Source: a virus. From it: a stretch of 14,700 nucleotides of DNA. Every line of letters begins with the position of its first letter. Position 1 is the first letter of the stretch. Shown here one piece after another: positions 123-14,274 of the stretch. Under the pieces are notes generated by a model, which did not search any database, was not told where the DNA came from, and was given only the letters and a program-made list of their open reading frames with translations. The stretch lies in the UHGV virus genome UHGV-0187445. One strand, written 5' to 3'. The position numbers and the translations under genes are program-made.

Positions 123-379
123 GTGACAACCTCAACCGACATGGCAGTGAGATCTGCCGGGTCCATCTCTGCAATTTCCTGTGCAGTCAGTGCCGGACTG
201 GAGATGCGGGGGATCACGGTCATCATCGCGTTTACATCCATATCCATAATGGCCTGCAGGCGTGTACCGCGCAGCGCACCGGACTGCGGTTTACGCAGCA
301 CAATTTCGGTGATTTCTGTTTTACCGCGCTTGATGGGGGTATCCAGTTGAATGGTCTTTTCAGTCTGCTTATCGCTCAT
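77..379 (-). CDS. E: Phage tail assembly chaperone gpE (P2 E family), copy 1
   Basis: 100 aa ORF directly downstream of tube gene; contains in-frame ACT TTT TTG slippery heptamer near 3' end; position and size as P2 E. Confidence 0.85.
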   Translation of the reverse strand: MSDKQTEKTIQLDTPIKRGKTEITEIVLRKPQSGALRGTRLQAIMDMDVNAMMTVIPRISSPALTAQEIAEMDPADLTAMSVEVVTFLLKKSVLAGLPTA

Positions 380-433
380 TTTGCTGTCCTGTCAATTGGG
401 TTCTGGCGCGGTATCCCGCGCCGTTCAGATATA

Positions 434-949
434 TCAGAGGCCGAGGGCGTTGCGGTGCGCTTCCATCAGGTCCACACCGTCCACAATTTCCACCATGTTG
501 ATAAGGTCCACTTCATAGAGCACCTCACCATTGATGGTCAGCTTCGCGTAGCTGTTGGTACTGGTCACTTTGGTGGTGTTGCTTTCGCCCGTCTTCCACT
601 CGCCGGAATCCACTTCTTTGTGACGTCCACGCACGACAAGCTCCACGGCCTGCACTTCCCCGGTATCGTCACGCTGGATAGAGCCGGTAAAGCGCAGTTG
701 GATGCCATCCACCGTGGATTTGCCCATCTGCTTAAACAGCAGCAGTTCAGTACCACCAATGGAAAATTCTGTGTCCAGCGCACTGTCATCAAGCCCCAGA
801 TCCACATCCACCGCACCCGGCATTCCGCCGCCGCGATACTTCTCATATTTGCGGGTAAATTTCGGCAGCGTCAGCGACTCAACGATCCCCTGCCAGTTGT
901 TCCCGTCGTTAAACAGGTTCAGGTGTTTTAATTTGCGTGGTAAAGCCAT
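434..949 (-). CDS. FII: Phage major tail tube protein (P2 FII family), copy 1
   Basis: 171 aa, MALPRKLK... N-terminus and ...HRNALGL C-terminus typical of P2 FII; immediately downstream of sheath gene. Confidence 0.9.
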   Translation of the reverse strand: MALPRKLKHLNLFNDGNNWQGIVESLTLPKFTRKYEKYRGGGMPGAVDVDLGLDDSALDTEFSIGGTELLLFKQMGKSTVDGIQLRFTGSIQRDDTGEVQAVELVVRGRHKEVDSGEWKTGESNTTKVTSTNSYAKLTINGEVLYEVDLINMVEIVDGVDLMEAHRNALGL

Positions 950-958
950 GTTGTCCCC

Positions 959-2131
959 TTACGCGCTGACCTGGCTGGCGAAATTCACCAGGTACTGATC
1001 GGTGATGCGCTGACGCAGCATCAGGTTTTCAAGTGGCGGCACTGGCGTGTAGTCGTAGTCGATGGTGAGTTTTCCGGCTTTCAGCGTGTCTTTGTCGTTC
1101 ACCGACTCATCCAGCCAGCAATCACCACCAATGAGATAGCCCTGACTGACCAGGCTGCGCATTTTGGCGCGGATGCCCTCGATAATGTCGCGCGCCAGCG
1201 ACGGGTTCAGCGGTTTGTCCACTGCCCACATGTGTGCTTCTGCCATCGTGTCCATCAGCACCTGCGCCGTGCGGGTGTAGTTTTCGAAGGCAAAGAGCGG
1301 GTCATCACTCAGGCAGCGGGAACCCCAGAAGCGGAAACCGTCTTTGCGGATAAGGGTGGTGACGTCGTTCTGGTTCAGCAGTCCAGCATCGGTTGCCGTG
1401 TCCTGCAGATCCCAGAACACATCAGCAGAAATTCCAGTGACACCGTTAACGCCCACATTGGACAGGCTTTTGTGCCATCCGGTCTGCTCGTCAATTTTGG
1501 CGCGCAGACCAAGCGCACGAGCGGTGGCATATGCCGTTGCTTCGGCATTCAGCACCGTGTCCCAGCCAGTAAAGTCAGGCCAGATCAGCATCCCTTCGCG
1601 CTGGCTGAAGTTTTCGCGGTAAGTGATCGCCTCCTGCACTGTCTTGCAGCCATACGCTGACAGGTAAGCAAATCCACGCAGGCTTTGCGCCACGCTCAGC
1701 AACTCAGTAGCCACCGCCTTGGTGTCGTGGCCTGGCACGCCGAGAATGCGCGGTTTAACGCCGAGCTGTGACTGGGCAGATAACAGGGCTTTCATACCTG
1801 TTTTTTTACCTTCAGCAGTCACTGCGCCGATGATATTGGTCGTGGTTTCGTCTTCCGTTTCACCCTGCGGCACACGCACAACAATGGTCACGGGTTTTGC
1901 CTGGTCAGCGATGGCATCCAGCGAACGGGCCAGAGTACCGGACTCACCCGCTTTACCGCTGGCAGTCAGCACATCAGTGATCAGCACGGGTTTATTAAGA
2001 GGAAACATTTTTGCATCGGCATCATCGCCCGTGCAGACCATACCCACGATGGCGGTGCTCACCGTGGTAATAGATCGGGTGCCTTCGTTGACTTCAACAA
2101 CGCGCACCCCGTGGTGGTAATCCTGAGCCAT
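959..2131 (-). CDS. FI: Phage contractile tail sheath protein (P2 FI family), copy 1
   Basis: 390 aa; ...DYHHGV...[13 protein letters not shown]...[12 protein letters not shown]... motifs typical of P2 FI; AGGAGG RBS 8 nt upstream of ATG at 2131. Confidence 0.9.
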
Positions 2132-2273: not shown

Positions 2274-2840
2274 TCAGGGGGATTCATTGATCTTATTTGC
2301 CGGAAATTTTCTATAAATGGTAGAAACGCCTACATCAAAAATCAGTGCAATACGCTGTCTTGATTCTCCGGCCTCGAGTAAACGCCCAATCTGTGCCCAC
2401 TGTTCGGTGGTCAACTTAGGACGGCGTCCACCTACTCTGCCTTTGGCACGAGCTGCAGCCAGCCCTGCCCTGGTACGTTCAACTATCAGTTCGCGTTCCA
2501 TTTCAGCCAGGGCACCCATGACATGAAAAAAGAAACGGCCCATTGGGGTACTGGTATCAATACTGTCAGTCAGGCTTCTGAAATTCACACCACGCTGGCG
2601 CAACTCTTCTATCAGCGTAACAAGATGCCGCATACTGCGCCCCAACCTGTCCAGCTTCCAGACAACCAGCGTGTCTCCTGCCGATAGTGTCCTGAGTAGT
2701 TTTTTCAGCCCCGGTCTGTCGGACTTAGTGCCACTGATTTTGTCCTCAAAAATCCGCTCACATCCCGCGCAGTTCAGTGCATTACGTTGCAAATCGGTGT
2801 TCTGGTCATTTGTTGACACGCGTACATAGCCAATAAGCAT
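2274..2840 (-). CDS. Serine DNA invertase (Hin/Gin/Pin/Cin family), invertase A
   Basis: 188 aa from ATG at 2840 (AGGGGG RBS 6 nt upstream; ORF track start 2846 is 2 codons further). MLIGYVRVSTNDQ catalytic-serine N-terminus, ...GRFFFHVMGALAEMERELIVERT... and C-terminal HTH region typical of the family. Confidence 0.9.
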   Translation of the reverse strand: MLIGYVRVSTNDQNTDLQRNALNCAGCERIFEDKISGTKSDRPGLKKLLRTLSAGDTLVVWKLDRLGRSMRHLVTLIEELRQRGVNFRSLTDSIDTSTPMGRFFFHVMGALAEMERELIVERTRAGLAAARAKGRVGGRRPKLTTEQWAQIGRLLEAGESRQRIALIFDVGVSTIYRKFPANKINESP

Positions 2841-2867
2841 GATCATCCCCCTGAATAAAAACCGGAG

Positions 2868-3389
2868 ATGATGCCAGTTAGCTGTTACCTCTGCATTTTC
2901 TTAAACGTTGGTTTAGGGGAAGGCTCTGCGCTGCCTGTTGGTGTGCCTGTTCCATGGCCTTCAGCCACACCGCCAACAGGCTGGCTGAAATGCAACGGTG
3001 CGGCTTTTTCTGCTGAAGATTACCCTAATCTGGCAAAGGCTTACCCGACGTTAAAATTGCCTGATTTACGCGGTGAGTTTATTCGTGGCTGGGATGGTGG
3101 AAAGGGAGTGGATAGTGGGCGAACTCTGCTTTCAGCACAAGGAGATGCTATCCGAAACATTACCGGGGTGGTTGGCTACAGTTCAATTGGCGATTCACAA
3201 GGGTTATTAGGATACGTGTCAGGGGCCTTTTCGGCTTCGGAGTCAAAAGCTCCCGCATTAAGTGGTGCATCAGCATCCGGGTATCAACGCTCCCTGTATG
3301 CGAATTTTAATGCTTCAGCCGTTGTCCCAACCGCAAATGAGAACCGCCCACGTAACATTGCCTTTAATTATATTGTGAGGGCTGCATAA
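2868..3389 (+). CDS. Tail fibre variable C-terminal cassette (tail-collar-type domain), lacking a constant N-terminal fibre region
   Basis: 173 aa; ...PVGVPVPWPS...GWLKCNGAAFSAEDYPNLAKAYP...LPDLRGEFIRGWD... and C-terminal ...NIAFNYIVRAA resemble Mu S / P1 S-type fibre C-termini; in-frame stop only 3 codons upstream of ATG (2856..2858). Confidence 0.75.
   Translation: MMPVSCYLCIFLNVGLGEGSALPVGVPVPWPSATPPTGWLKCNGAAFSAEDYPNLAKAYPTLKLPDLRGEFIRGWDGGKGVDSGRTLLSAQGDAIRNITGVVGYSSIGDSQGLLGYVSGAFSASESKAPALSGASASGYQRSLYANFNASAVVPTANENRPRNIAFNYIVRAA
2896..2921. repeat. hix/gix-like 26 bp recombination site, left (TTTTCTTAAACG TT GGTTTAGGGGAA; core TT at 2908..2909)
   Basis: Half-sites show 8/12 dyad symmetry around a 2 bp core; resembles Hin-family crossover sites; 55 bp from invertase A start. 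Confidence 0.65.
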
Positions 3390-3991
3390 TGGATAACGCT
3401 GTATTAAATAGCGAGATTATTGCCACGAAGGCAGGGAATATTACCGTCTATAACTATGATGGTGAAATACGGGAATATATTTCCACTTCAAATGAATATC
3501 TTGCCGTTGGTGTTGGTATCCCGGCATATTCCTGTTTAGATTCACCAGGCACATATAAGGCTGGTTATGCTATCTGCCGTTCTGCAGATTTTAACTCATG
3601 GGAATATGTGCCAGACCATCGCGGTGAAATCGTCTATAACACCGAAACGGGAGAAGCCAAAGAAATCACAACTCCGGGTGATTACCCTGAAAATACAACC
3701 ACTATCGCCCCGTTAACGCCATACGATAAATGGGATGGTGAGAAATGGGTGACCGATACTGAGGCACAGCACGGCGCAGCAGTAGATGCAGCAGAAGCAC
3801 AGCGCCAGTCGCTGATTGATACTGCAATGGCCTCCATCAGTCTGATTCAACTGAAATTACAGGCCGGACGGAAGCTGACGCAGGCAGAAACAACCCGCCT
3901 TAACACTGTGCTGGATTACATTGACGTGGTGACGGCAACAGATACCAGCACAGCGCCGGACGTCATCTGGCCTGAACTGCCGGAGGCGTAG
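3389..3991 (+). CDS. Tail fibre assembly chaperone (Tfa/U family)
   Basis: 200 aa; start overlaps upstream stop (TAATG); C-terminal ...DVIWPELPEA motif typical of Tfa proteins. Confidence 0.8.
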   Translation: MDNAVLNSEIIATKAGNITVYNYDGEIREYISTSNEYLAVGVGIPAYSCLDSPGTYKAGYAICRSADFNSWEYVPDHRGEIVYNTETGEAKEITTPGDYPENTTTIAPLTPYDKWDGEKWVTDTEAQHGAAVDAAEAQRQSLIDTAMASISLIQLKLQAGRKLTQAETTRLNTVLDYIDVVTATDTSTAPDVIWPELPEA

Positions 3992-4403
3992 GCCATTCAA
4001 TATCTGGCGCACCGGAAGTATCGACCAGTTCCAGTGCGTACAGATAATCCAGCCACAAATTATATTGCGCCAGTTCCTCACCTTTCAGGCGACAAATCGC
4101 CGCTTTACCAGCCCATTGTCTACTGTTCATATAATCGTTGGCCTGATTAATCAATTGCTGCTTTTTAGTTTCGACTGATGCAATTTGTTCTTCACGTGTT
4201 GGCGGTGGAACATCTGCCCATGCTGGCATTCCATCGTCTCCGGTAATTCTGTACTTACCGTCAGGCGGCGTATCATGGAAATATTCCCTGAAAATAGCTT
4301 CGTCTATATCCACGCCTTTACCTTCGGGCCATTGGCCTTTTGCAGCGTAAACAGACTGGAGGGCATAAGGGTACGCCAGATTATCAACATACAAATATTT
4401 CAT
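3963..4403 (-). CDS. Alternative tail fibre assembly chaperone (Tfa/U' family)
   Basis: 146 aa; C-terminal ...DIEWPTPP... motif; convergent with and overlapping the other tfa by 29 bp. Confidence 0.8.
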   Translation of the reverse strand: MKYLYVDNLAYPYALQSVYAAKGQWPEGKGVDIDEAIFREYFHDTPPDGKYRITGDDGMPAWADVPPPTREEQIASVETKKQQLINQANDYMNSRQWAGKAAICRLKGEELAQYNLWLDYLYALELVDTSGAPDIEWPTPPAVQAR

Positions 4404-4405
4404 AA

Positions 4406-4735
4406 TTAACGCCCTTTCGCGTAGAAGGCTCCACCTTCAAAGCCATAGTTACAATGAGCAACGAAACCTGTTTTCGTCCAGTTAGTTGCGCCCCACATAT
4501 TCCCACCACCAAAACCGCCGTCATATACAATCACTACGTCTGGCTCCTGCGTAAAAGGAATGGTGAAAGTCACATTTGTAGATACCGCCGCGGCGTTATT
4601 CGGGAAATTAATTCTTCCCCACTGTTCAATTGAACCATCAGGCAATTTTTGCCAGCCAGATCCTGATGAATAAGCTGACATATCAGGTATCTGATTTTCC
4701 CCTGTTCCCACATTCCGTTTTGCCGCTTCTCCCAA
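4406..4735 (-). CDS. Alternative tail fibre variable C-terminal cassette (no ATG; ORF-track start is TTG; frame open only to 4759)
   Basis: 109 aa C-terminal glycine-rich fibre tip; N-terminus (..CIFKNVGLGE..) is encoded by the right crossover site and matches the left cassette's CIFLNVGLGE; stop at 4760..4762 immediately outside. Confidence 0.7.
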   Translation of the reverse strand: MGEAAKRNVGTGENQIPDMSAYSSGSGWQKLPDGSIEQWGRINFPNNAAAVSTNVTFTIPFTQEPDVVIVYDGGFGGGNMWGATNWTKTGFVAHCNYGFEGGAFYAKGR

Positions 4736-4752
4736 ACCAACGTTTTTGAAAA
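4727..4752. repeat. hix/gix-like 26 bp recombination site, right (inverted copy; core AA at 4739..4740 on plus strand)
   Basis: Reverse complement reads TTTTCAAAAACG TT GGTTTGGGAGAA, matching the left site at 22 of 26 positions; 54 bp from invertase B start. Confidence 0.65.
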
Positions 4753-4806
4753 TGCATAATTATTAGCCGAATGGCATGATTTATCGTTTTAAAGGAATGA
4801 AAAACC

Positions 4807-5388
4807 ATGCTTATTGGATATGTGCGCGTATCAACAAATGACCAGAACACGGCTTTGCAACGTGATGCGCTTGAGCGGTCAGGATGTGAGCTAATTTTTG
4901 AAGATAAAATGAGCGGGAGAACAGCGGAAAGGCCAGGGCTTAAAAAATTACTAAAGCGCCTTTCTCCAGAAGATACGCTTGTTGTCTGGAAGCTGGATCG
5001 TCTTGGGCGGAGTATGCGGAACTTGGTCATTCTGGTGGAGGAACTAAAGCAACGTTCCGTGAACTTCCGCAGCCTGACTGACAGTATTGATACCTCAACA
5101 CCAATGGGGCGTTTCTTTTTTCATGTTATGGGAGCACTGGCAGAGATGGAGAGAGAATTGATTGTCGAGCGTACGCGTGCAGGACTGGTGGCCGCTCGCG
5201 CGCAGGGAAGGATCGGCGGTAGACGTCCAAAACTAACACCAGAACAATGGGCGCAGGCGGGTAGGTTAATAGCGGCAGGGGAATCGCGCCGGAGGGTTGC
5301 CATAATTTATGATGTTGGGATATCTACGCTTTACAAAAAATTCCCAGCGACCAGAGATAAGAATTCCGGCACGCATGGCCGGTTATAA
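4807..5388 (+). CDS. Serine DNA invertase (Hin/Gin/Pin/Cin family), invertase B
   Basis: 193 aa; AAGGAA RBS; about 80% amino-acid identity by eye to invertase A, in opposite orientation. Confidence 0.9.
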   Translation: MLIGYVRVSTNDQNTALQRDALERSGCELIFEDKMSGRTAERPGLKKLLKRLSPEDTLVVWKLDRLGRSMRNLVILVEELKQRSVNFRSLTDSIDTSTPMGRFFFHVMGALAEMERELIVERTRAGLVAARAQGRIGGRRPKLTPEQWAQAGRLIAAGESRRRVAIIYDVGISTLYKKFPATRDKNSGTHGRL

Positions 5389-5472
5389 CCGTGCTGGCCG
5401 TGTGTATCGAGTACGGTCACTTTTAACGGTGCTGTAGCACGGTCAGTTATGGTGGTGTATTACGGAAGACGA

Positions 5473-5496
5473 AGCGGGCAATGGCCCGCTTTTCTT
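5473..5496 (+). terminator. Rho-independent terminator hairpin (AGCGGGC-aatg-GCCCGCT followed by TTTTCTT), overlapping the stop codon of U on the other strand
   Basis: 7 bp GC-rich stem plus T-tract seen directly; lies between convergent invertase B and U. Confidence 0.6.
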
Positions 5497-5944
5497 ATAT
5501 CGAAAGGTTGGTTTTCACCAGAGAGAAGAGATCGTCGGTAGTGGTTTCAGCCAGCTTTTCCCGTATGTCCTCGCTTACCCGTTTCAGGTTGAGCGTGAAA
5601 TCAATTTTCTTTGCCTTCCCGTCCTTAAAAAACTCCGTCCGGTTTTGCGTGATCTGCTCAATTACATACATGCCGTAGATCCTGCCCGTGCCTTCTATCA
5701 GGGGCCACGGGCGCCCGGAAAAAGCCATAGTTTCCAGCATGACAAGCGACACATCACCGCCGCTTATTTCGGGGTACAGCGTGCCGCTGAGTACGAACGG
5801 TTCTTCATCTGCGCCGATGAACTGATAGCGCGGGGATTTCCCCACGCGATCGTTTTTGACGTGCCGCCAGGAGTTGGTTTTATTCGCACTCTGGTAAGGT
5901 GTGGTTTGCAGTGAAAAGGGGAACATCCCCAGAATCATCATCAT
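5495..5944 (-). CDS. U: Phage tail protein gpU (P2 U family), module 2
   Basis: 149 aa; MMMILGMF... N-terminus and ...WPLIEGTGRIYGMYVIEQ... typical of P2 U; directly downstream of T. Confidence 0.85.
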   Translation of the reverse strand: MMMILGMFPFSLQTTPYQSANKTNSWRHVKNDRVGKSPRYQFIGADEEPFVLSGTLYPEISGGDVSLVMLETMAFSGRPWPLIEGTGRIYGMYVIEQITQNRTEFFKDGKAKKIDFTLNLKRVSEDIREKLAETTTDDLFSLVKTNLSI

Positions 5945-5953
5945 GATATTGCC

Positions 5954-8881
5954 TTAGACGTGATCGGTCAGTTGGGAGCGCTTGCGCCGGTCGGCCTGTT
6001 GCTTCGCTAACGCAAGTTCTTCGCGCACGCGCCTGATAATGGTTTCTTCATCCAGTTTCTGGCCGCTAAAGTCGAAGTTAAGGTTATATACATCGCCACC
6101 CGGAGCAGGCATCAGCGCAGCGACGGAAGCCGCAGACGGAGACGCCGAAACAGGCATCCGTGCGGCGGGCTTCTCAACCTGCCAAGGCGTAACGGAAGCG
6201 ATCAGCGATCCGGCCTGCTGCGTCACCCAATCGGTAAGGGATGGTAGCTGGCGCTGCGCCTGCTTAAGCGGTTCCGAATATCCGCCACGGATCGGGATAT
6301 AGGGCTGCTTATTCTTGAAGACAATTTCGCCGGGGCCGTCTTTCTTCTCCGTGGTATTGGTGGCGATCTTGTCCAGGCTGTTGCTCATCTTCGGCACGAT
6401 GTTGGCCGGGCCTTTGAGCGAGTTAATCAGGTTGTCCTGTTTCTTCTGCTCATCGGTTTTCTTTTTCTCTTCGGCTTTTTTGCTTTCCTTCGCGACTGCC
6501 TGCACGTCACCGGAAAAGGCGTTAACCCGGTCTGCCAGATTGTTTACCGCTTCCGGCGTCATTTGCTGCGCAACCTGCTGCGCTGCTTTCGCTGCGTCGG
6601 GAATGGCGCCCAGCTTTTCCAGAATCCAGCCCAGCCCTTTGGCTACGGCCTGAATGGGAAGCGTCAGCGCGCTGATTGCGGCCCCAACCACCTTACCGAA
6701 GGTTTCCCCTGCACTGGTGCAGGATGCCAGCGCTTCACTGGAAAACTGGATCGGCTCCAGTAGTTTGGTAAACCATTCCCAGACGCCGCTGATCGCGTTG
6801 CCGATACTGTTAAAAATCGGGGCCAGTGGTGCGAATACGGCGTTAAACGACTGCGTTATTGGTTGAAGGCCAGCCATCAGACCGGTAAAGAAGCCGCTGA
6901 AAAATGCCTTAATCGGTTGCCAGAATTTAATTACGGCCACTGCTACCGCAGCAAAGAGAGCAATCAGCCCCCAGACGGGCGCAGAAATGCCAGCCAGTAG
7001 CGTGATAAGCGGGCCGAATACCATGCGACCGGCGCTTAACAATGCCTGCATAGGCGAGCCAGCAAGCCACTGGAACGCACCACCCAGGCGCATTACTCCG
7101 CCAGTCAGACGCGCTATTCCTCCTTCCCCGGCCAGCGAGGTGAAGCTGAGGCGAACAAGTGCCATTGGGCCAAGTACTGCGCCGATGGACAGCATCAGGC
7201 CACCCATGACAACCAGCAAAGCGCCTATGGCTGCGGTGACTTTCATGATTGAACCAACCAGCGCTGGGTTTGCCTCCACCCAGCGGCGGACGCTGCCAAC
7301 CACCTTACTGACGGTAAGCATGATATCCATCAGCGGATCGCGAAGGGTTTCACCTGCTGAACTGAATGCGTTAACCGCGCCGGTTTTGGTCAGTTGCCAT
7401 TGAGCAGAAAGGGAAGCTTTATTGATATCAGACTCCCTATTCATGGAACCTTTAGCGGCTGCGCCCTGCGTCAGTTCTATCTGGCGGCGTAGTTCGGGCA
7501 GGTTGTTGGCAAGTTTCTGCGCATCATCGCCGAACTCTTTGCCAAAAATCTGGGTAAGGTTGGCTACCTGCTGATCCGGGGCCAGTTTTTTGGACGCTTC
7601 CAGCACTGAAATGATTGTGCCCATCGCGTCCACTGACATGCTCTTCTGAACTTTTTCGGCGCTGAGGCCGAGGGCGTCCAGACCCTGCATAAAGTTTTTG
7701 CCCTGAACCGTAGCGATTGAGAGTTCGCGCACCATTGCATTGGTGGCGCTGGCGGCAACTTCGGCAGGGGTGCCGAGCGTCAGAAAGGTGGAACCCAGCG
7801 CGGCGGCTTGCTTGTAATCCAGTTGGCTGGCAAGCCCACCAACGCGCTGGAGTACGTCGATAATATCGGAGCCTTTCGACTTCGCGTTATCGTCCAGGTA
7901 GTTTATGGCGTCGCCTAACTGTTCAATATTCTGGGTGGGGATTTTATACAGCCCGGCAATTTTCCCCAGGCTTTCAGAAAGCTGATCGGCGGGCAGTTCA
8001 AAGGCTACCGAAGCTTTTGCCGCCATGCTGGCAAAAGACAGCAGATCGGCTTTTTGCTTTTGCCAGGGATCATCGCTGTTTGCGACGCCCATACGCGCGC
8101 CGCCTTCGACCAGGGCGGCATAGTCAACAGCACCGTTAGCCATTGGCAGCTTTTCGCTGGCATCCATGATCGCCCGCTGCATTTCTTCATACTGCGGGGT
8201 GCGGTTGCCGCTGTCGTCACGTAAGCCATTTACCTGTTTGGCTACGCCCTTCATCGCGTCTTCGAGGCTGCTGTAGGATTTCACCGCAGCGGCGACAGGT
8301 ACGAGTGTTGCCGCCCCTACTGCGGCGGTTTTCATTCCCCCGCTCATCATCTTTTCGCCGGTTTCTTTGGCGCGGCTGTAACGGGCCTGCGCCTGGTTAA
8401 CAGCGTCAAGCCGTCGTTGCTGTTCAGCAAGCTGGCGGTTGTATTGCGCGGTGCGCTGGTTGATCTGTTCCGTCGCCCGGCTGGCGCTGCTGATCGCAAT
8501 GCCTTCGCTGTAGAAGCTGGCCCGCAACTGGTTAAGCTGCGTCTGCTCGCCTTTCTGCTGCTGGGTTAACTGGCGAATGGCTGCACGTTGCTGATTGAGG
8601 GCGGCAACTTGTTCGGCGCTGCGCTGGCGTAACGGGCCATAAGCCGCCGCCATTTGCCGGGCCTGTTCTTTCGCCTGGGCCAGTTGTTCGGTGGTTTTTT
8701 TATTGGCTGCGGTGAGGCGGTCAAAGCTGGTTGCCTGACGCTCAAGCCCTTTAATGCTGGTTTTAGTCTGGTTGATTTGAGACGCCAACGCGGCGGCACT
8801 CTGGCGCGCCGCGTTGACAGGGCGGGACATATTATTCAGGGCGCTGAATGCCACCCTGATATTTAAATTGCGGTCTGCCAT
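5954..8881 (-). CDS. T: Phage tail tape measure protein (P2 T family), module 2
   Basis: 975 aa; N-terminal coiled-coil-rich region, central hydrophobic segments, position between E' and U. Confidence 0.9.
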   Translation of the reverse strand: MADRNLNIRVAFSALNNMSRPVNAARQSAAALASQINQTKTSIKGLERQATSFDRLTAANKKTTEQLAQAKEQARQMAAAYGPLRQRSAEQVAALNQQRAAIRQLTQQQKGEQTQLNQLRASFYSEGIAISSASRATEQINQRTAQYNRQLAEQQRRLDAVNQAQARYSRAKETGEKMMSGGMKTAAVGAATLVPVAAAVKSYSSLEDAMKGVAKQVNGLRDDSGNRTPQYEEMQRAIMDASEKLPMANGAVDYAALVEGGARMGVANSDDPWQKQKADLLSFASMAAKASVAFELPADQLSESLGKIAGLYKIPTQNIEQLGDAINYLDDNAKSKGSDIIDVLQRVGGLASQLDYKQAAALGSTFLTLGTPAEVAASATNAMVRELSIATVQGKNFMQGLDALGLSAEKVQKSMSVDAMGTIISVLEASKKLAPDQQVANLTQIFGKEFGDDAQKLANNLPELRRQIELTQGAAAKGSMNRESDINKASLSAQWQLTKTGAVNAFSSAGETLRDPLMDIMLTVSKVVGSVRRWVEANPALVGSIMKVTAAIGALLVVMGGLMLSIGAVLGPMALVRLSFTSLAGEGGIARLTGGVMRLGGAFQWLAGSPMQALLSAGRMVFGPLITLLAGISAPVWGLIALFAAVAVAVIKFWQPIKAFFSGFFTGLMAGLQPITQSFNAVFAPLAPIFNSIGNAISGVWEWFTKLLEPIQFSSEALASCTSAGETFGKVVGAAISALTLPIQAVAKGLGWILEKLGAIPDAAKAAQQVAQQMTPEAVNNLADRVNAFSGDVQAVAKESKKAEEKKKTDEQKKQDNLINSLKGPANIVPKMSNSLDKIATNTTEKKDGPGEIVFKNKQPYIPIRGGYSEPLKQAQRQLPSLTDWVTQQAGSLIASVTPWQVEKPAARMPVSASPSAASVAALMPAPGGDVYNLNFDFSGQKLDEETIIRRVREELALAKQQADRRKRSQLTDHV

Positions 8882-9082
8882 TTAGTGATCTCCACCACTG
8901 CGCGCAGCCGCCTGATCACGCCATAACAGTATTTCCTGTACCGTCATGGCGTCCATCTCTACCGGCCGCCAGTGGAATATGACGGCGATATCTGCCATCA
9001 GGTCTTCTATGCGTTCGCAGGGGCATCGGATGATTCGTTGCCCGTATCCGTCGCGGTCAGATCCGAAGAGGGTTGCAAAAAA
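8882..9082 (-). CDS. E': E' extension of E+E' fusion, module 2 (-1 programmed frameshift at T TTT TTG, plus-strand 9076..9082); full E+E' spans 8882..9342
   Basis: Hand translation of the -1 frame from the heptamer gives a stop-free 66-codon tail (FATLFGSDRDGYGQRIIRCPCERIEDLMADIAVIFHWRPVEMDAMTVQEILLWRDQAAARSGGDH) ending at TAA 8882..8884, directly abutting the T start codon (TAAATG). Confidence 0.75.
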   Translation of the reverse strand, partial: FFATLFGSDRDGYGQRIIRCPCERIEDLMADIAVIFHWRPVEMDAMTVQEILLWRDQAAARSGGDH

Positions 9083-9342
9083 TCAACCACCGCGTTGGCT
9101 AGCTGGCAAAAATCCCAGGTATCCATACGGGCAATCTCATCGGCGGTTAGTGCCGGAGCGGTAACGCGGGGCAGCAGAATAACCAGCGCGTCATAGTTGG
9201 AAGTCAGCACGTCATAGGCTTTTAAGCCGCGCAGTGATCCAGCCTGTTTAAGCACGGAAGTGATCGCCACTTCGGTGATTTTGGTCTTACCGCGCGTAAT
9301 AGGGGCGGTAAGAATAACGGTGTTTTCTTTGGTTTTGCTCAT
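9007..9342 (-). CDS. E: Phage tail assembly chaperone gpE, module 2
   Basis: 111 aa; in-frame GAT TTT TTG heptamer 25 codons before the stop; downstream of tube gene. Confidence 0.85.
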   Translation of the reverse strand: MSKTKENTVILTAPITRGKTKITEVAITSVLKQAGSLRGLKAYDVLTSNYDALVILLPRVTAPALTADEIARMDTWDFCQLANAVVDFLQPSSDLTATDTGNESSDAPANA

Positions 9343-9356
9343 GGTGCCGGGTTTCC

Positions 9357-9872
9357 TTATAGGCCGATGTTAGCGCGGTGTTTTTCCAGCACATCCACAC
9401 CGGCAACTTTGTAGATCATGTTGAGCACATCAACTTCGATAATCTCTTCGCCGTTGATGGTCAGCTTGTAATAGGTGTTTTTCAGGGTGTACTTATGCGA
9501 AGTGTCATCCCCGACTTTTGCCGAACCGGGATCCAGTTCAGTGAAGCGGCCACGCGTCTGGATTTCGCACGGTACAGCGTCGCCGGTTGCGTCGTCCTGA
9601 TAGGAGCCAGCAAAACGTGTTTGCATCCCGTCCGCAGTGGTAACGCCCCATTTTTTCAGCAATCCGGCATCCAGACCGCCAAGCGTGATATCCATATCCA
9701 GGGCGCCAGCGTCGAAGCCAAGATCCACCGCAACCGAACCTGGCATACCACCCGCCTGGTAGTCTTCGGTTTTTTTGGTGAGTTTGGCGGGGGTGATTTC
9801 CGGCACCATGCCGAAGTAGTTATCCCCGTCAAAGAACATATTGAAATATTTGAGTTTCTTAGGCAGTGCCAT
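9357..9872 (-). CDS. FII: Phage major tail tube protein (P2 FII family), module 2
   Basis: 171 aa; MALPKKLKYFNMF... and ...HRANIGL; same length as module-1 FII but highly diverged. Confidence 0.9.
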   Translation of the reverse strand: MALPKKLKYFNMFFDGDNYFGMVPEITPAKLTKKTEDYQAGGMPGSVAVDLGFDAGALDMDITLGGLDAGLLKKWGVTTADGMQTRFAGSYQDDATGDAVPCEIQTRGRFTELDPGSAKVGDDTSHKYTLKNTYYKLTINGEEIIEVDVLNMIYKVAGVDVLEKHRANIGL

Positions 9873-9884
9873 AAGCGCCCCCGG

Positions 9885-11078
9885 TTAGTTATTCACTGCG
9901 CTGGAAAACGTAGCGAAATATTCGTCGGTGAACTCCTGTACCAGGCTGAGATTTTCCAGCGGTGGAACAGGGGTGTAGTTGTACTTAATGGTCAGTTGAC
10001 CATTGCGCAGGGTTTCCGAGGTATTCGGTTCCGGGTCATACCAGCAGCGGGCGCCCAGCAGCTTGCCAGCCGTCACGTATGAGGTCAGCTTCTTATTGAT
10101 GCCGTCCACAATGTCCTTTACCAGCGACGGGGTAAGCGGTTTATCAACATAGGCGAAATGGGCTTCGGCGACGGTATCCGCAACTATCTGCGCGGTTCGG
10201 GTATAGCTTTCGAAGATATACGTTTCCGCGTCGCAGGTACGCGATCCCCAGATGCGGTAGCCGTCCTGCTTGATCAGCGTGGTAACGCCTGCTGCGTTCA
10301 GTTCGTCGGCGTCGGTATCGGTGCCCTGCAACGTGAAATAGATATCCCGATCCATCCCCAGCACGTTATTAACGGGCACGTTGGAAATGGTTTTATGCCA
10401 GCCCTGCGTTGCGTCGATTTTGGCTCGCATCCCAACAGCATGGGCACCCACGGGCACGGTGGCATTAGCCCCGGCGTTGGTGTCGTAGCAGATGAAATTA
10501 GGCCAGATAACCATCATTTCACGCTGGGAGAATTGCTCGCGGTATTCCTTCACTTCGGCGATTGTGTTGCAACCGTTCGCTGCCACGTAAGCAAACGCGC
10601 GCAGCTTTTCGGCAATGACGCCGAGTTGTGCGGCTACCGCTTCCGTATCAAGCCCTGGAACAGCCAGTACACGCGGGCGCACACCTACGCGCATTTCGGC
10701 AGACAGCAGCGCGTACATGCCGGTAAAGCGCCCGTTTGCATCGGTGCCGCCAATAACCAGTTGATCCTGGGTCTGTGCGGTGCCGCCTTCTGGCGGTTCG
10801 ATATTTGCAGCATCAGCAACGCGGATCACAATGGTTTGCGGGCTGGTCTGGTCTGAAATCGCTTTCAGGGTGGTAAACAGGGTGCCGGTTTTACCTGCCT
10901 TGCCCAGCATGTTAGCCACGCGGGTAATCAGTACAGGGGTATCCAGCGGGAACGCTGTTTCGTCCGCATCATCAGCGGTGCAGACAACGCCGATCACCGC
11001 CGAATCAATGTCGGTGATCATCGTGCTAAGGTCGGTGGTTTCCGTGACGGTTACACCGTGATGGTAGTTAGTGGCCAT
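9885..11078 (-). CDS. FI: Phage contractile tail sheath protein (P2 FI family), module 2
   Basis: 397 aa; ...NYHHGV...TTLIKQDGYRIWG...[12 protein letters not shown]...; roughly half the residues identical to module-1 FI by eye. Confidence 0.9.
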   Translation of the reverse strand: MATNYHHGVTVTETTDLSTMITDIDSAVIGVVCTADDADETAFPLDTPVLITRVANMLGKAGKTGTLFTTLKAISDQTSPQTIVIRVADAANIEPPEGGTAQTQDQLVIGGTDANGRFTGMYALLSAEMRVGVRPRVLAVPGLDTEAVAAQLGVIAEKLRAFAYVAANGCNTIAEVKEYREQFSQREMMVIWPNFICYDTNAGANATVPVGAHAVGMRAKIDATQGWHKTISNVPVNNVLGMDRDIYFTLQGTDTDADELNAAGVTTLIKQDGYRIWGSRTCDAETYIFESYTRTAQIVADTVAEAHFAYVDKPLTPSLVKDIVDGINKKLTSYVTAGKLLGARCWYDPEPNTSETLRNGQLTIKYNYTPVPPLENLSLVQEFTDEYFATFSSAVNN

Positions 11079-11150
11079 GTATTTGCCTCGCCAGTTTAAT
11101 GACTGCGAATATCATTGCGGCAATGGCGGGCCGATGCGATGGATAAGGGT

Positions 11151-11168
11151 TGTCAGCAACCTGCAACA
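11151..11168. promoter_or_regulatory. TGT-N12-ACA dyad (P2 late-promoter activator site) between divergent FI(2) and D
   Basis: TGTcagcaacctgcaACA seen directly; centre about 81 bp upstream of FI(2) ATG and about 77 bp upstream of D ATG. Confidence 0.5.
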
Positions 11169-11235
11169 ATGACGGGGCGTTGTTCATGCGCGCGCGCGTG
11201 GCGACGATGTACCCCATCATGATGAAGGGGTTGAT

Positions 11236-12354
11236 ATGGACACGACAGAAAACCGATATTCGCCGCGCCCGGCGTTCAGTATTGAGATTGAAGGTAAGCA
11301 GCTTACGGCGCTGGATAACCGGCTGATCTCCCTTTCCCTGACAGATAACCGGGGCTTTGAAGCGGACACGCTGGATCTGACTCTGGATGATGCAGACGGG
11401 CAGGTAGCCTTACCATCACGCGGCGCAAAGATATCGGTGGCGCTGGGCTGGGATAATGATCCATTGGTTTTTAAGGGCGTGTATACGGTTGACGAGATCG
11501 GACACTCTGGCCCGCCTGACCAGCTAACGATCAGTGCCAGAAGCGCAGATTTCCGCGATACCTTTAACGTGAAGAGGGAATATAGCTGGCACGATATTAC
11601 CGTGGGGGATGTGGTTGCCAGCATTGCCAGCCGTTACGATCTGCGTGCGGGCGTCAGCGAAGAACTGGCGAAGATTGAGATAGATCACGCCGATCAGACG
11701 AGTGAATCAGATATCAGCTTCTTAACGCGCATGGCCGAAATGCTGGGCGCGGTGGCAACCATTAAAAACGGTATGCTTCTGTTTATCACGCCGGGCAAGG
11801 GAGTAACGCAGAGCGGCAAGCCGCTGCCGGTGATCGAGATAGTCCGGTCAAGCGGTGATAAACATCGGTTTAACGTAGCTGACCGCGACGCGTACACGGG
11901 CGTAACTGCATACTGGCTTGATCTCAACTTTGGCAAGAAACCATCCACTACCGTGAAGAAAACCACCCGCAGGCGACGAACCAGCCAGGCCAAAAAGAAA
12001 GAACCCGCATCAAGCAAAAAAGAAGGGGATTATCTGGCCGGGGCCGAAGGCAACGTTTTTGTTATCCGTAAAACCTTCAAGACGGAAAAGGCGGCAAAGC
12101 GTGCCGCAGCGGCTAAGTGGCGGGAGTTGCAGCGCGGGGCGGCTACGTTCAGCATCACCCTGGCGCGTGGGCGCGCGGATTTGTACCCGGAACAGCCAGC
12201 CAGTGTTTATGGGTTTAAGTCCACGATCGACAGTGGAAGCTGGACGATAACACGGTGCGTTCACGATGTTGGCGGGGGAGGGTTTACCACGTCGCTGGAA
12301 CTGGAAGTAAAAATCGACGACTGGACAGCGGAGAGTGACGATTCAACGTCTTAA
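11236..12354 (+). CDS. D: Phage late control / tail protein gpD (P2 D family)
   Basis: 372 aa; ...DLTLDDADGQVALPSRGAKISVALGW...GPPDQLTISARSADFRDTFNVKREYSW...DAYTGVTAYW... typical of P2 D; GAAGGGG RBS. Confidence 0.85.
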   Translation: MDTTENRYSPRPAFSIEIEGKQLTALDNRLISLSLTDNRGFEADTLDLTLDDADGQVALPSRGAKISVALGWDNDPLVFKGVYTVDEIGHSGPPDQLTISARSADFRDTFNVKREYSWHDITVGDVVASIASRYDLRAGVSEELAKIEIDHADQTSESDISFLTRMAEMLGAVATIKNGMLLFITPGKGVTQSGKPLPVIEIVRSSGDKHRFNVADRDAYTGVTAYWLDLNFGKKPSTTVKKTTRRRRTSQAKKKEPASSKKEGDYLAGAEGNVFVIRKTFKTEKAAKRAAAAKWRELQRGAATFSITLARGRADLYPEQPASVYGFKSTIDSGSWTITRCVHDVGGGGFTTSLELEVKIDDWTAESDDSTS

Positions 12355-12402
12355 GCGTTATACTTGCGTTGATATTAACCAGTCATGAAAGGAGGCCCGC
12401 GT

Positions 12403-12645
12403 ATGGCAATGCGCTGTCCTCGCTGCCGTGCTATAGCAAAAACCAGAACCAGCGTTGAGCTGAGTTTGCTTGTACGGCGCAGCTATCACCAGTGTCAAAA
12501 CATGTTATGCGGGTACTGTTTCACCAGCATGACGGAAATAGACGGTTCATTAAACCAGACCCAGCCAGCGCCCGGCGCGATGGTGCCACAAGAAGCTTTT
12601 CCACGAAGTCACCACGGCGAAGATCAGCTATCGCTGGCACTGTAA
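12403..12645 (+). CDS. ogr: Late-gene transcriptional activator, Ogr/Delta zinc-finger family
   Basis: 80 aa from ATG at 12403 (AAAGGAGG RBS 7 nt upstream); CPRC ... HQCQNMLC Cys4 motif matching the Ogr ...YHQCQN.C signature; follows D as in P2. Confidence 0.8.
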   Translation: MAMRCPRCRAIAKTRTSVELSLLVRRSYHQCQNMLCGYCFTSMTEIDGSLNQTQPAPGAMVPQEAFPRSHHGEDQLSLAL

Positions 12646-12647
12646 AA

Positions 12648-12676
12648 ATAACCCGCCTACATGGCGGGTTTCTTAT
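12648..12676 (+). terminator. Rho-independent terminator after ogr (ACCCGCC-tacat-GGCGGGT then TTCTTAT)
   Basis: Hairpin plus U-rich tract seen directly, 5 nt after ogr stop. Confidence 0.6.
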
Positions 12677-12734
12677 ACCTGTTACCCCTGATATTATTTT
12701 TCAACTTTCACAGTGGTGCTTAAAAGGTAGGGAT

Positions 12735-13118
12735 ATGAAAAAGTTAATCATGGTACTTGCGCTGTTTAGCCTTGTTGGATGTAAGCCCGGTGCTGATAAA
12801 GCGGTTGAGTTGGGGCAGAAAGAAGTTGCTTCAAGTATGCGCGATCCTGATAGCGCGAAATTCAGGTATGTACGTTTTGTTCAGAAAGACGAAGCTGCTG
12901 ATGGTGCTGTTGTCGGTTACGTCTGCGGGCAGGTAAACGCCAAAAATGCGTTTGGTGCGTATGCTGGTTTTGCACCTTTTGAAATGGAATTGTCGATGAA
13001 GTCGAAGGGGTTCTTCTCAAAAGGGGTAACTTACTCTGTATTTAACAAGCAACTGTATTCAGACCCAGGACAGGTAAACATGGCCGAATATACGAAGAAG
13101 TGCGGCCCTGATCAATAG
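12735..13118 (+). CDS. Small lipoprotein of unknown function (signal peptide with lipobox LVGC); candidate prophage cargo
   Basis: 127 aa from ATG at 12735 (GGTAGGG RBS); MKKLIMVLALFSLVGC lipoprotein signal; no family recognised by eye. Confidence 0.65.
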   Translation: MKKLIMVLALFSLVGCKPGADKAVELGQKEVASSMRDPDSAKFRYVRFVQKDEAADGAVVGYVCGQVNAKNAFGAYAGFAPFEMELSMKSKGFFSKGVTYSVFNKQLYSDPGQVNMAEYTKKCGPDQ

Positions 13119-13145
13119 GTTAAGTTTTAGGCAAATGTTTGAATA

Positions 13146-13170
13146 GACCGGGCAGAAGCCCGGCTTTTTT
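13146..13170 (+). terminator. Rho-independent terminator after lipoprotein gene (GACCGGGC-agaa-GCCCGGC then TTTTTT)
   Basis: Perfect GC-rich hairpin plus T6 seen directly. Confidence 0.7.
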
Positions 13171-13261
13171 CTGTCGAAGTGTAGTCAAAATGTAGACGAA
13201 GATTAGAATAAATCCTTTTATTCCATTGTGTTACTGGCTGGATTTCTTCACCATCCCTGTC

Positions 13262-13290
13262 TTCCCCCACATGATGTGGGGGTTTTTTTT
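13262..13290 (+). terminator. Strong stand-alone rho-independent terminator (CCCCCAC-atgat-GTGGGGG then T8); no ORF upstream
   Basis: Hairpin plus T8 seen directly, about 90 bp after the previous terminator and about 80 bp before fieF. Confidence 0.65.
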
Positions 13291-13371
13291 ATCCTCAATT
13301 TGCCTGCTGCTTAATGCATTGCAGATGATTTGCTTCCGTTATACTAGCGTCAGTTGATAGCGGGAGTATTT

Positions 13372-14274
13372 ATGAATCAATCTTATGGACGGCTGGTCAG
13401 TCGGGCGGCGATTGCTGCGACGGCGATGGCTTCGTTGCTATTGCTGATTAAAATTTTTGCATGGTGGTATACCGGGTCGGTGAGTATTCTCGCCGCGCTG
13501 GTGGATTCGCTGGTGGATATCGGCGCGTCGTTGACGAATTTACTGGTGGTGCGATATTCCCTGCAACCTGCCGACGATAATCACTCGTTTGGTCACGGTA
13601 AAGCTGAGTCCCTCGCGGCGCTGGCGCAAAGTATGTTTATCTCCGGTTCGGCACTATTCCTGTTTTTGACGGGTATTCAACATCTGATATCTCCAACACC
13701 GATGACAGATCCAGGCGTTGGGGTTATCGTGACAATTGTGGCGCTAATTTGTACGATTATCCTTGTCTCGTTTCAGCGTTGGGTGGTGCGGCGGACGCAA
13801 AGCCAGGCGGTGCGGGCTGATATGCTACATTACCAGTCTGATGTTATGATGAACGGTGCAATTCTGCTGGCGCTGGGGTTGTCCTGGTACGGCTGGCATC
13901 GCGCCGATGCTCTGTTTGCATTGGGAATCGGCATCTATATTTTATATAGCGCGTTACGCATGGGATATGAGGCGGTACAGTCATTACTGGATCGCGCATT
14001 GCCTGATGAGGAACGGCAAGAAATTATTGATATCGTGACTTCCTGGCCGGGTGTTAGCGGCGCTCACGATCTTCGCACGCGGCAGTCAGGGCCGACCCGC
14101 TTTATTCAGATTCATTTGGAAATGGAAGACTCTCTGCCTTTGGTTCAGGCACATATGGTGGCGGATCAGGTAGAGCAGGCTATTTTACGGCGTTTTCCGG
14201 GATCGGATGTGATTATCCATCAGGACCCCTGTTCCGTCGTACCCAGGGAGGGTAAACGGTCTATGCTTTCATAA
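13372..14274 (+). CDS. fieF: Ferrous-iron/zinc efflux cation diffusion facilitator FieF (YiiP)
   Basis: 300 aa from [13 protein letters not shown]...; recognised as E. coli FieF; ORF-track start at 13354 is an upstream in-frame extension. Confidence 0.93.

What the first reader, a model, noticed from the sequence alone, without database searches (positions are those of the whole stretch)
5389..11235. Sheath-to-U block is inverted relative to D and ogr, breaking the canonical FI-FII-E-T-U-D operon
In P2-family phages FI, FII, E, T, U and D are co-directional and contiguous, with ogr downstream in the same orientation. Here FI..U (11078 down to 5495) is on the minus strand while D and ogr are on the plus strand, diverging from a 157 bp spacer, and U instead converges on invertase B across a hairpin-rich 106 bp junction. 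That junction (5389..5494) contains short internal repeats (ACGGTCA twice) and shares a 9-mer (GGCAATGGC) with a palindrome in the FI/D spacer (CATTGC-G-GCAATG, 11114..11126); this is weak evidence but marks candidate breakpoints. The simplest explanation is an inversion of a 5.7 kb block carrying its own late promoter.
Basis: partly seen in the sequence, partly recalled or inferred. Interest (0 to 1): 0.6.

Follow-up and report, generated by a model that had tools for sequence, protein, structure and literature searches.

The report
Normal tail-gene layout, P2-like subgroup
The sheath-to-U tail genes do face away from gene D here, but this is the standard gene order of a large group of working P2-like phages (SEN4/5, P88 and relatives), not damage to this prophage. 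The real rearrangement in the window lies about 650 bases to the left, where two different prophages were joined at a DNA-invertase site.

Summary
U, T, E', E, FII and FI lie on the minus strand (5495-11078). D and ogr lie on the plus strand. The FI/D spacer is 157 bp and the invertase/U junction is 106 bp.

Window 5297-13293 is 94% identical in one piece to the plaque-forming Salmonella phage SEN4/5, which has the same layout. So do P88, 3LV2017, phiT5282H and KSP20, 31 of 5,426 complete E. coli genomes, and every one of about 125 classifiable loci, from over 20 enterobacterial genera, whose D protein is at least 60% identical. No inverted repeats flank the block, and the short shared motifs are at chance level.

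The spacer holds one TGT-N12-ACA late-activator site at the P2 P_F distance from FI. Minus-10-like hexamers sit 35 nt from it on both sides, the geometry of P2's shared P_P/P_O promoter. I infer a bidirectional late promoter that drives FI-U one way and D the other.

Separately, the segment at 2896-4752 is flanked by two invertase genes. It joins an Elveevirus-like prophage arm to the SEN4/5-like arm, with the switch confined to 24 bp at the crossover site.

The parts
4807..5388 (+). DNA invertase 2 (Hin/Gin-type serine recombinase) of the SEN4/5-like prophage. It converges on U.
   Evidence: Pfam Resolvase + HTH_7. 100% identical to the invertase of the E. coli 0H26 prophage at fieF. P88 has an invertase in the same position.
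5389..5494 (.). Convergent invertase/U junction with two hairpins, including a terminator-like stem-loop at 5471-5492.
   Evidence: The junction is conserved in SEN5, whose homology starts at 5297.
5495..5944 (-). gpU tail protein
   Evidence: PF06995. 98.7% identical to SEN5, 48% to P2 U.
5954..8881 (-). gpT tape measure protein
   Evidence: PF10145. 94.9% identical to SEN5.
8882..8998 (-). gpE' (GpE family; the frameshift extension of the tail chaperone)
   Evidence: PF06528. Annotated as a GpE family protein in E. coli 0H26.
9007..9342 (-). gpE tail assembly chaperone
   Evidence: PF10109 at 23.1 bits, just below the cut-off of 25. 43% identical to P2 E.
9357..9872 (-). gpFII tail tube
   Evidence: PF04985
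9885..11078 (-). gpFI tail sheath
   Evidence: PF04984, PF17482 and PF22671. 53% identical to P2 FI.
11079..11235 (.). Divergent FI/D spacer, inferred to be a bidirectional Ogr-type late promoter (P_F leftward, P_D rightward).
11151..11168 (.). TGT-N12-ACA dyad (TGTCAGCAACCTGCAACA), the late-activator binding-site motif.
   Evidence: The dyad sits at a fixed 75-86 bp from the FI ATG in 72 of 95 distinct spacers (73 hold a perfect dyad). P2 P_F has the same offset.
11111..11116 (-). Predicted P_F -10 hexamer (AATGAT on the minus strand). The predicted transcription start is about 11104.
   Evidence: The hexamer starts 35 nt after the dyad in 11 of 11 lineages. P2 P_P and P_O hexamers also start at 35 nt.
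11203..11208 (+). Predicted P_D -10 hexamer (GACGAT). The predicted transcription start is about 11215.
   Evidence: The hexamer starts 35 nt after the dyad in 9 of 11 lineages and 36 nt in the other 2. It lies in the conserved block GTGGCGACGATG.
11236..12354 (+). gpD (baseplate hub / late control D)
   Evidence: PF05954. 99.5% identical to SEN5, 48.5% to P2 D.
12385..12645 (+). Ogr/Delta-type zinc-finger late activator
   Evidence: PF04606
13264..13293 (.). Right end of the prophage (attR region). Homology to SEN4/5 stops at 13293, and host fieF follows at 13354-14274.
2274..2846 (-). DNA invertase 1, which belongs to a different, Elveevirus-like P2-type prophage arm. That arm spans 1-2922 and also holds E 77-379, FII 434-949 and FI 959-2131.
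   Evidence: Pfam. 99-100% identical to the Cartapus and bR_120_Kylling proteins. The DNA is 97-99% identical to phages Cartapus and 500465-1.
2896..2921 (.). Left 26-bp invertase crossover site (TTTTCTTAAACG-TT-GGTTTAGGGGAA)
2908..4745 (.). Invertible tail-fibre segment. It holds a fibre tip 2868-3389(+), chaperones 3389-3991(+) and 3963-4403(-), and a fibre tip 4406-4735(-). No constant tail-fibre gene lies on either side.
   Evidence: Pfam Collar, Caudo_TAP and Gp53-like_C. 99.8% identical to the segment of the E. coli AF16 prophage.
4727..4752 (.). Right 26-bp crossover site (TTCTCCCAAACC-AA-CGTTTTTGAAAA). The switch from prophage A to prophage B is confined to 4722-4745.

Best explanation
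Window 4807-13293 is the right arm of a SEN4/5-like (Senquatrovirus-type) P2-family prophage inserted between cpxP and fieF of E. coli. In this whole lineage the order is: tail fibre/invertase on the plus strand, then U-T-E'-E-FII-FI on the minus strand, then D-ogr on the plus strand. That order is the native, functional gene order.

It most likely arose once, by inversion of the FI-U block together with its P_F late promoter, in the common ancestor of a large clade of Peduoviridae. That clade includes Senquatrovirus, Xuanwuvirus, Reginaelenavirus and Novemvirus, plus many prophages across the Enterobacterales.

How it works is inferred, not shown. The 157-bp FI/D spacer holds a single dyad-symmetric Ogr/Delta-type activator site (TGT-N12-ACA, 11151-11168). 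Minus-10-like hexamers start 35 nt from the dyad on each side. One bound activator would therefore switch on transcription leftward into FI-FII-E-E'-T-U (start near 11104) and rightward into D, probably continuing into ogr (start near 11215). P2 does the same at its divergent P_P/P_O promoters. The hairpins at 5389-5494 end the converging tail-fibre/invertase and FI-U transcripts.
For: Shown:
- Window 5297-13293 is 94.2% identical in one piece to phage SEN4/5, whose annotation has the same order.
- SEN4/5 is spontaneously released, forms plaques and has a contractile tail by electron microscopy (PMC5261728).
- P88 (inducible), 3LV2017, phiT5282H and KSP20 share the layout.
- A complete prophage with this layout sits at cpxP/fieF in E. 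coli 0H26 and AR_0128. 31 of 5,426 complete E. coli genomes hold the FI/D junction.
- Every one of about 125 classifiable loci with D at least 60% identical has FI on the minus strand 141-239 bp upstream of D, and where the contig reaches that far, U about 5.2-5.7 kb upstream. These come from 52 genome loci in over 20 genera and 80 viral contigs.
- Phages with D at 56% identity or less (RE2010, Cartapus, P2) have the canonical order.
- Identity to P2 is uniform across the block and its surroundings: FI 53, FII 48, U 48, D 49, N 49, Q 51 percent. This argues for an inversion in place rather than a foreign module.
- No flanking inverted repeats.

Promoter evidence:
- The dyad lies 81.5 bp from the FI ATG, against 82.5 bp in P2 P_F. 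It sits 75-86 bp from the FI ATG in 72 of 95 distinct spacers, 73 of which hold a perfect dyad.
- A -10-like hexamer starts at position 35 after the dyad on the FI side in 11 of 11 divergent lineages. On the D side it starts at 35 in 9 of 11 and at 36 in 2 of 11. No other offset scores above 3.
- P2's P_P/P_O pair uses one annotated site, with both hexamers at position 35 and both starts at position 47.
- In the 0H26 prophage, perfect dyads also lie in the P/O spacer and upstream of V.
Against: - There are no transcript data, so the P_D start and its dependence on Ogr are inferred.
- The predicted P_D -10 (GACGAT) matches TATAAT at only 3 of 6 positions.
- The distance from the dyad to the D start codon varies from 55 to 125 bp among lineages, so leader length is not conserved.
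- 22 of 95 distinct spacers, mostly the P88-like group, have no perfect TGT-N12-ACA. P88 has a one-mismatch site.
- The locus search finds relatives that share exact peptides with this D, so it may under-sample intermediates.
- The canonical order is taken as ancestral from outgroups (P2, Fels-2-type here; phiCTX and HP1 from general knowledge), not from a rooted tree.
Confidence: 0.8

Rival explanations
1. One reading: a recent inversion of the 5.7-kb FI-U block within this particular prophage. It would break the FI-D operon and perhaps silence D, with breakpoints at 5389-5494 and 11079-11235.
For: The order differs from P2. The two junctions share a 9-mer, and there is a palindrome in the spacer.
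Against: Both junctions are identical in SEN4/5 and in 21-31 E. coli genomes. The same layout occurs in every related locus that could be classified and in viable phages. The 9-mer is chance-level and in direct orientation. No inverted repeats flank the block.
Confidence: 0.02
2. The ancestor acquired a foreign FI-U tail module in reverse orientation by module swapping, rather than inverting its own genes.
For: P2-like phages are mosaic. The T protein is highly divergent from P2 T, aligning over only about 110 residues.
Against: FI, FII, E and U are as similar to P2 (43-53%) as D, the capsid, the portal and the baseplate genes are (47-70%). The P_F dyad-to-ATG spacing is retained.
Confidence: 0.1
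3. The dyad serves only P_F. D and ogr are transcribed from an independent promoter that does not depend on Ogr, or from a site for another regulator. The conserved TTGTT + GCGCGCGCG block on the D side would be that site.
For: The dyad-to-D-ATG distance is variable. The -10 match is weak. An unexplained GC-alternating block is conserved only on the D side. In P2, ogr has its own promoter.
Against: The fixed offset of 35-36 nt for a -10-like hexamer on the D side in 11 of 11 lineages is exactly the P2 P_P/P_O geometry. D is a structural late protein needed together with FI-U.
Confidence: 0.2

Closest known systems
Salmonella phage SEN4/SEN5 (Senquatrovirus SEN4, Peduoviridae)
   Same: 94.2% nucleotide identity over window 5297-13293 in one piece. 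Identical order and strands for U, T, E', E, FII, FI | D, ogr. Same 157-bp spacer and dyad.
   Different: SEN4/5 has a different tail-fibre module and no invertase, keeping only a 3' remnant of that gene. It comes from a Salmonella host. The window's copy has an invertase and its left arm has been exchanged with another prophage.
Escherichia phage P88 (Xuanwuvirus) and Citrobacter phage PhiSM
   Same: Same full layout, including the invertible tail-fibre segment and an invertase converging on U, with FI diverging from D. Both are active phages.
   Different: Only about 62% D identity. The spacer is longer, and P88 has no perfect TGT-N12-ACA.
Phage P2 F operon (FI-FII-E-E'-T-U-D, promoter P_F) and the P_P/P_O divergent late promoters
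   Same: Homologous genes at 43-53% identity. The P_F activator site is at the same distance from FI. The FI/D spacer reproduces the P_P/P_O geometry: one dyad, hexamers at +35 on both sides.
   Different: In P2, D follows U on the same strand and is transcribed from P_F. Here D is divergent and needs its own start site.
Hin/Gin/Cin/Pin invertible tail-fibre segments (Mu G, P1 C, e14 P)
   Same: Two 26-bp inverted crossover sites shaped like hixL (TTCTTGAAAACC-AA-GGTTTTTGATAA; this site is recalled from memory, not fetched here). Serine invertases with Resolvase + HTH_7 domains. Alternative fibre tips with chaperones.
   Different: In this window an invertase gene flanks the segment on both sides and no constant fibre gene is present. 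This is the product of an exchange between two prophages.

Membership tests
P2-family (Peduoviridae) contractile tail module | Sheath FI, tube FII, chaperone E/E', tape measure T, U, hub D and the Ogr/Delta zinc-finger activator are all present. | tested here: met
   Pfam hits for each gene. E is just below its cut-off but is 99% identical to SEN5 gp24 and 43% to P2 E.
P2-family canonical F operon | FI-FII-E-T-U-D are contiguous and co-directional. | tested here: not met
   FI-U are on the minus strand and D on the plus strand. This is characteristic of the SEN4/5-P88 clade.
SEN4/5-P88-type layout (Senquatrovirus, Xuanwuvirus, Reginaelenavirus, Novemvirus) | FI diverges from D across a spacer of 140-240 bp, and U converges on the tail-fibre or invertase module. 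| tested here: met
   The spacer is 157 bp and the layout matches. All classifiable loci share it.
Genus Senquatrovirus (same genus as SEN4/5) | High nucleotide identity over the whole genome (ICTV genus criterion, about 70%). | tested here: inconclusive
   94% identity over the 8 kb present. The window holds only the right arm, so the head, baseplate and early regions cannot be assessed. Related complete prophages (0H26, AR_0128) look collinear with SEN5.
P2-type Ogr/Delta-dependent late promoter | TGT-N12-ACA dyad centred about 55 bp upstream of the transcription start, with a -10 element and no good -35. | tested here: met
   The motif and spacing are met at sequence level on both sides.
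P2-type Ogr/Delta-dependent late promoter | Transcription starts at the predicted sites and depends on the activator. | not testable with these tools
   Needs 5' end mapping or reporter assays.
Hin/Gin-type invertible segment | Serine invertase, plus two inverted 26-bp crossover sites with a 2-bp core. | tested here: met
Hin/Gin-type invertible segment | The segment abuts the constant 5' part of a tail-fibre gene, so that inversion swaps the C-terminus. | tested here: not met
   Both flanks are invertase genes. The constant part is expected at the reciprocal joint elsewhere in the genome, as seen in bR_120_Kylling.
Hin/Gin-type invertible segment | A Fis-dependent recombinational enhancer within the invertase gene. 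| not tested
   Not examined.

The most novel reading that the evidence does not exclude
The real rearrangement in this window is not the FI-U block. It is the joint invertase-1 | segment | invertase-2 at 2274-5388. That joint would be one end of a chromosomal inversion made when a prophage DNA invertase recombined the crossover sites of two unrelated P2-type prophages, one Elveevirus-like and one SEN4/5-like. Both sites and both invertase genes are intact, so the flip could be reversible. Tail-fibre switching enzymes would then act as drivers of large chromosome flip-flops that split both prophages and lock them in place. Within the assigned region, the more modest novel reading is that a single Ogr dyad drives FI-U and D divergently, which would explain why the ancestral inversion was tolerated.
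Probability: 0.3. Interest if true: 0.5.

Novelty: already known. Interest (0 to 1): 0.15.

Why it matters
For the assigned finding the value is mainly corrective. Divergent FI and D genes should not be read as prophage decay or as a local inversion. The arrangement marks a large, functional clade of P2-like phages, and annotation or prophage-completeness tools that expect the P2 order could wrongly flag these elements.

There are two modest gains. First, the FI/D spacer looks like a second bidirectional Ogr-dependent late promoter built like P2's P_P/P_O, with start sites that can be tested. Second, the window and one complete genome show that invertase crossover sites in different prophages can recombine with each other. 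That inverts tens of kilobases or more of chromosome and splits both prophages.

Tried and rejected
- Searched for inverted repeats bracketing the 5.7-kb block and found none.
- Tested the shared 9-mer and the 7-mer repeat against shuffles. Both are at chance level.
- Rfam and tRNA scans of the window found nothing, so the hairpin junction is not a known RNA family and the attachment site is not a tRNA.
- Looked for the window's invertase-1 | segment | invertase-2 joint in 5,426 complete E. coli genomes. No genome holds the same joint. Only the analogous one in bR_120_Kylling turned up.
- Considered E. coli AR_0128 as the source genome. Rejected, because its prophage is whole and lacks the invertible segment.
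- Considered general homologous recombination for the inter-prophage joint. Judged unlikely, because the switch interval is only 24 bp and is centred on the crossover site.
- Considered the module-swap origin of FI-U. Judged unlikely because divergence from P2 is uniform.
- Text searches of the SEN4/5, P88 and PhiSM papers and of a 2026 survey of P2-like phages found no mention of the inverted layout. It is visible in the annotations but I found no discussion of it.
Full report
**What is in the window**

ORF listing and Pfam scans give the following map.
- Minus strand: E-like 77-379, FII 434-949, FI 959-2131, invertase-1 2274-2846.
- A tail-fibre segment holding a fibre tip 2868-3389 (+), chaperones 3389-3991 (+) and 3963-4403 (-), and a fibre tip 4406-4735 (-).
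- Invertase-2 at 4807-5388 (+).
- Minus strand: U 5495-5944, T 5954-8881, E' 8882-8998, E 9007-9342, FII 9357-9872, FI 9885-11078.
- Plus strand: D 11236-12354 and ogr 12385-12645.
- A small unassigned ORF, then host fieF at 13354-14274.

The window therefore contains two sheath/tube sets, from two different P2-type elements. The assigned finding concerns the right-hand set.

**Check of the observation**

The strands, the 157-bp FI/D spacer and the 106-bp invertase/U junction are exactly as described. The junction folds into two hairpins on either strand (z = -4.7 and -3.4). One of them, at 5471-5492, is terminator-like.

The small motifs exist, with one-base corrections to the coordinates: ACGGTCA at 5413-5419 and 5439-5445, GGCAATGGC at 5477-5485 and 11119-11127, and the palindrome at 11113-11125. 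None is more than chance. Shuffles give a shared 9-mer 9% of the time and an internal 7-mer repeat 24% of the time. The 9-mer is in direct orientation. No inverted repeat links the two ends of the block.

**Is it a rearrangement of this prophage? No.**

- Window 5297-13293 matches Salmonella phage SEN4/SEN5 (genus Senquatrovirus) at 94.2% in a single collinear piece.
- The SEN5 annotation shows the same order: tail fibre on the plus strand, then U, T, E', E, FII and FI on the minus strand, then D on the plus strand.
- SEN4/5 is spontaneously released, forms plaques on Salmonella and E. coli indicator strains, and has a contractile tail by electron microscopy (PMC5261728).
- Complete prophages with this layout and an invertase sit between cpxP and fieF in E. 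coli 0H26 and AR_0128.
- 31 of 5,426 complete E. coli genomes carry the FI/D junction and 21 carry the invertase/U junction.

**How deep the layout goes**

I fetched 52 genome loci and 80 viral contigs that encode relatives of this D protein, then located FI, U and D in each with tblastn. The genome loci come from Salmonella, Citrobacter, Hafnia, Enterobacter, Pectobacterium, Photorhabdus, Xenorhabdus, Yersinia, Providencia, Morganella, Brenneria, Serratia, Klebsiella, Erwinia, Pantoea, Edwardsiella and others.

About 125 loci could be classified. In every one, with D 60-100% identical, FI lies on the opposite strand 141-239 bp upstream of D. Where the contig reaches that far, U lies about 5.2-5.7 kb upstream on the same strand as FI.

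Named phages with the layout:
- P88 (Xuanwuvirus)
- 3LV2017 (Reginaelenavirus)
- phiT5282H (Novemvirus)
- Serratia phage KSP20

P88 is inducible and its relative PhiSM is spontaneously active (PMC6456863). Phages whose D is 56% identical or less have the canonical T-U-D-ogr order: RE2010 (a Fels-2 relative), Cartapus and P2. The split is clean, which fits a single old event.

Identity to P2 is uniform across the block and its surroundings: FI 53, FII 48, E 43, U 48, D 49, capsid 49, portal 51, baseplate 48-70 percent. This favours an inversion in place over import of a foreign module.

That condition is met.

**How D is probably expressed**

The spacer contains one perfect TGT-N12-ACA at 11151-11168. 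This is the motif of P2-type late promoters, as annotated in the P2 record.
- Its centre is 81.5 bp from the FI start codon. The P2 P_F site is 82.5 bp from FI, and the other FI gene in this window has one at 85.5 bp.
- 73 of 95 distinct spacers from the relatives hold a perfect dyad. In 72 of them it sits 75-86 bp from FI, while its distance to D varies from 55 to 125 bp.
- The site is therefore anchored to P_F and moved with the block.

I then aligned 11 mutually divergent lineages on the dyad. A -10-like hexamer (A at position 2, T at position 6, at least 3 of 6 matches to TATAAT) starts exactly 35 nt beyond the dyad on the FI side in 11 of 11. On the D side it starts at 35 nt in 9 of 11 and at 36 nt in the other two. 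No other offset scores above 3.

In P2 the divergent P_P and P_O promoters share one annotated activator site. Both hexamers start at position 35 and both mapped transcription starts are at position 47.

I therefore infer that the FI/D spacer is a bidirectional late promoter of the P_P/P_O type. The predicted starts are near 11104 (minus strand, 26-nt leader to FI) and 11215 (plus strand, 21-nt leader to D).

This part rests on sequence geometry and conservation only. The D-side hexamer GACGAT is weak, and there are no transcript data.

One element remains unexplained. A TTGTT + GCGCGCGCG block lies between the dyad and the D-side hexamer and is conserved across genera. It recurs on the terminase side of the P/O promoter in the 0H26 prophage.

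**The rearrangement that is really in the window**

The segment between 2896 and 4752 is bounded by two inverted 26-bp sites of the Hin/Gin type:
- left: TTTTCTTAAACG-TT-GGTTTAGGGGAA
- right: TTCTCCCAAACC-AA-CGTTTTTGAAAA

An invertase gene lies outside each site, and no constant tail-fibre gene lies on either side.
- Left of the segment, the DNA is 97-99% identical to Elveevirus-like phages: Cartapus, 500465-1 and the bR_120_Kylling prophage.
- The segment itself is 99.8% identical to that of an Elveevirus-like prophage in E. coli AF16.
- From 4746 rightward, the sequence is identical to the SEN4/5-like prophages.
- The last base specific to the first lineage is at 4721 and the first base specific to the second is at 4746. 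The exchange therefore lies within 24 bp that include the central AA of the crossover site.

This is what a site-specific exchange by the invertase would leave. The shared stretch is too short to be a likely substrate for general homologous recombination.

[quoted passage not shown] I predicted that the reciprocal joint should exist in that genome, and it does. About 93 kb away there is a joint in which the two constant fibre genes face each other across a segment. That arrangement is an inversion between two prophages.

No complete E. coli genome in the collection carries the window's own joint. Its partner joint, the size of the inversion and its reversibility are all unknown. An assembly error at the 24-bp shared site cannot be excluded from the window alone.

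**Verdict**

The layout is already present in annotated, classified and viable phages, so it is ordinary. The papers I could search do not discuss it. The inferred bidirectional late promoter and the invertase-mediated joint between two prophages are the only points of modest interest.

Noticed in passing
window 2274-5388 (sites 2896-2921 and 4727-4752): An invertible tail-fibre segment is flanked by two different invertase genes, with no constant fibre gene on either side. It joins an Elveevirus-like prophage arm to the SEN4/5-like arm. The lineage switch is confined to 24 bp (4722-4745) containing the crossover core, which indicates invertase-mediated recombination between two prophages.
   Followed up: yes
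L004 (NZ_CP182374.1 2236721-2239848) and L148 (2140639-2144399): [quoted passage not shown] The predicted reciprocal joint, with two constant fibre genes facing each other, lies about 93 kb away. This amounts to an inter-prophage chromosomal inversion.
   Followed up: yes
window 1-2131: A second, partial tail module (E 77-379, FII 434-949, FI 959-2131) is 98-100% identical to Elveevirus-like phages. It has its own TGT-N12-ACA site at 2208-2225, 85.5 bp upstream of FI.
   Followed up: partly
window 11180-11199; L003 8352-8397: A TTGTT + GCGCGCGCG tract is conserved between the activator dyad and the D-side -10 hexamer, in genera from Salmonella to Xenorhabdus. It also occurs on the terminase side of the P/O promoter of the 0H26 prophage. 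Its function is unknown.
   Followed up: partly
window 5297-5388 = L001 (SEN5) 14938-15029: SEN4/5 has no invertase gene but retains about 90 bp homologous to the 3' end of the invertase gene. This suggests it lost an invertible tail-fibre module.
   Followed up: partly
L001 (SEN5 RefSeq) 22024-22281 and 20707-20859; window 11068-11220: The SEN5 annotation places 'ogr' on the wrong strand as a 39-aa ORF, whereas a full-length Ogr homologue is encoded on the plus strand. A 50-aa hypothetical ORF annotated across the FI/D promoter spacer (window 11068-11220, minus strand) is probably spurious.
   Followed up: no
E. coli 0H15-0H26 sibling genomes; L140 (AR_0128): Sibling genomes differ in where the plus-strand match to the window begins: 0H23 from 4731, the others from 3716. 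This suggests the segment next to invertase-2 flips in culture. In AR_0128 no tail-fibre assembly genes are annotated between the invertase and the fibre gene, so the invertible segment seems to be missing.
   Followed up: no
window 12650-13353: A hairpin follows ogr at 12650-12670. An unassigned 127-aa ORF (12735-13118) has no Pfam hit. Homology to SEN4/5 ends at 13293, next to a terminator-like hairpin at 13264-13282. The prophage lies between cpxP and fieF, and no tRNA is present.
   Followed up: no
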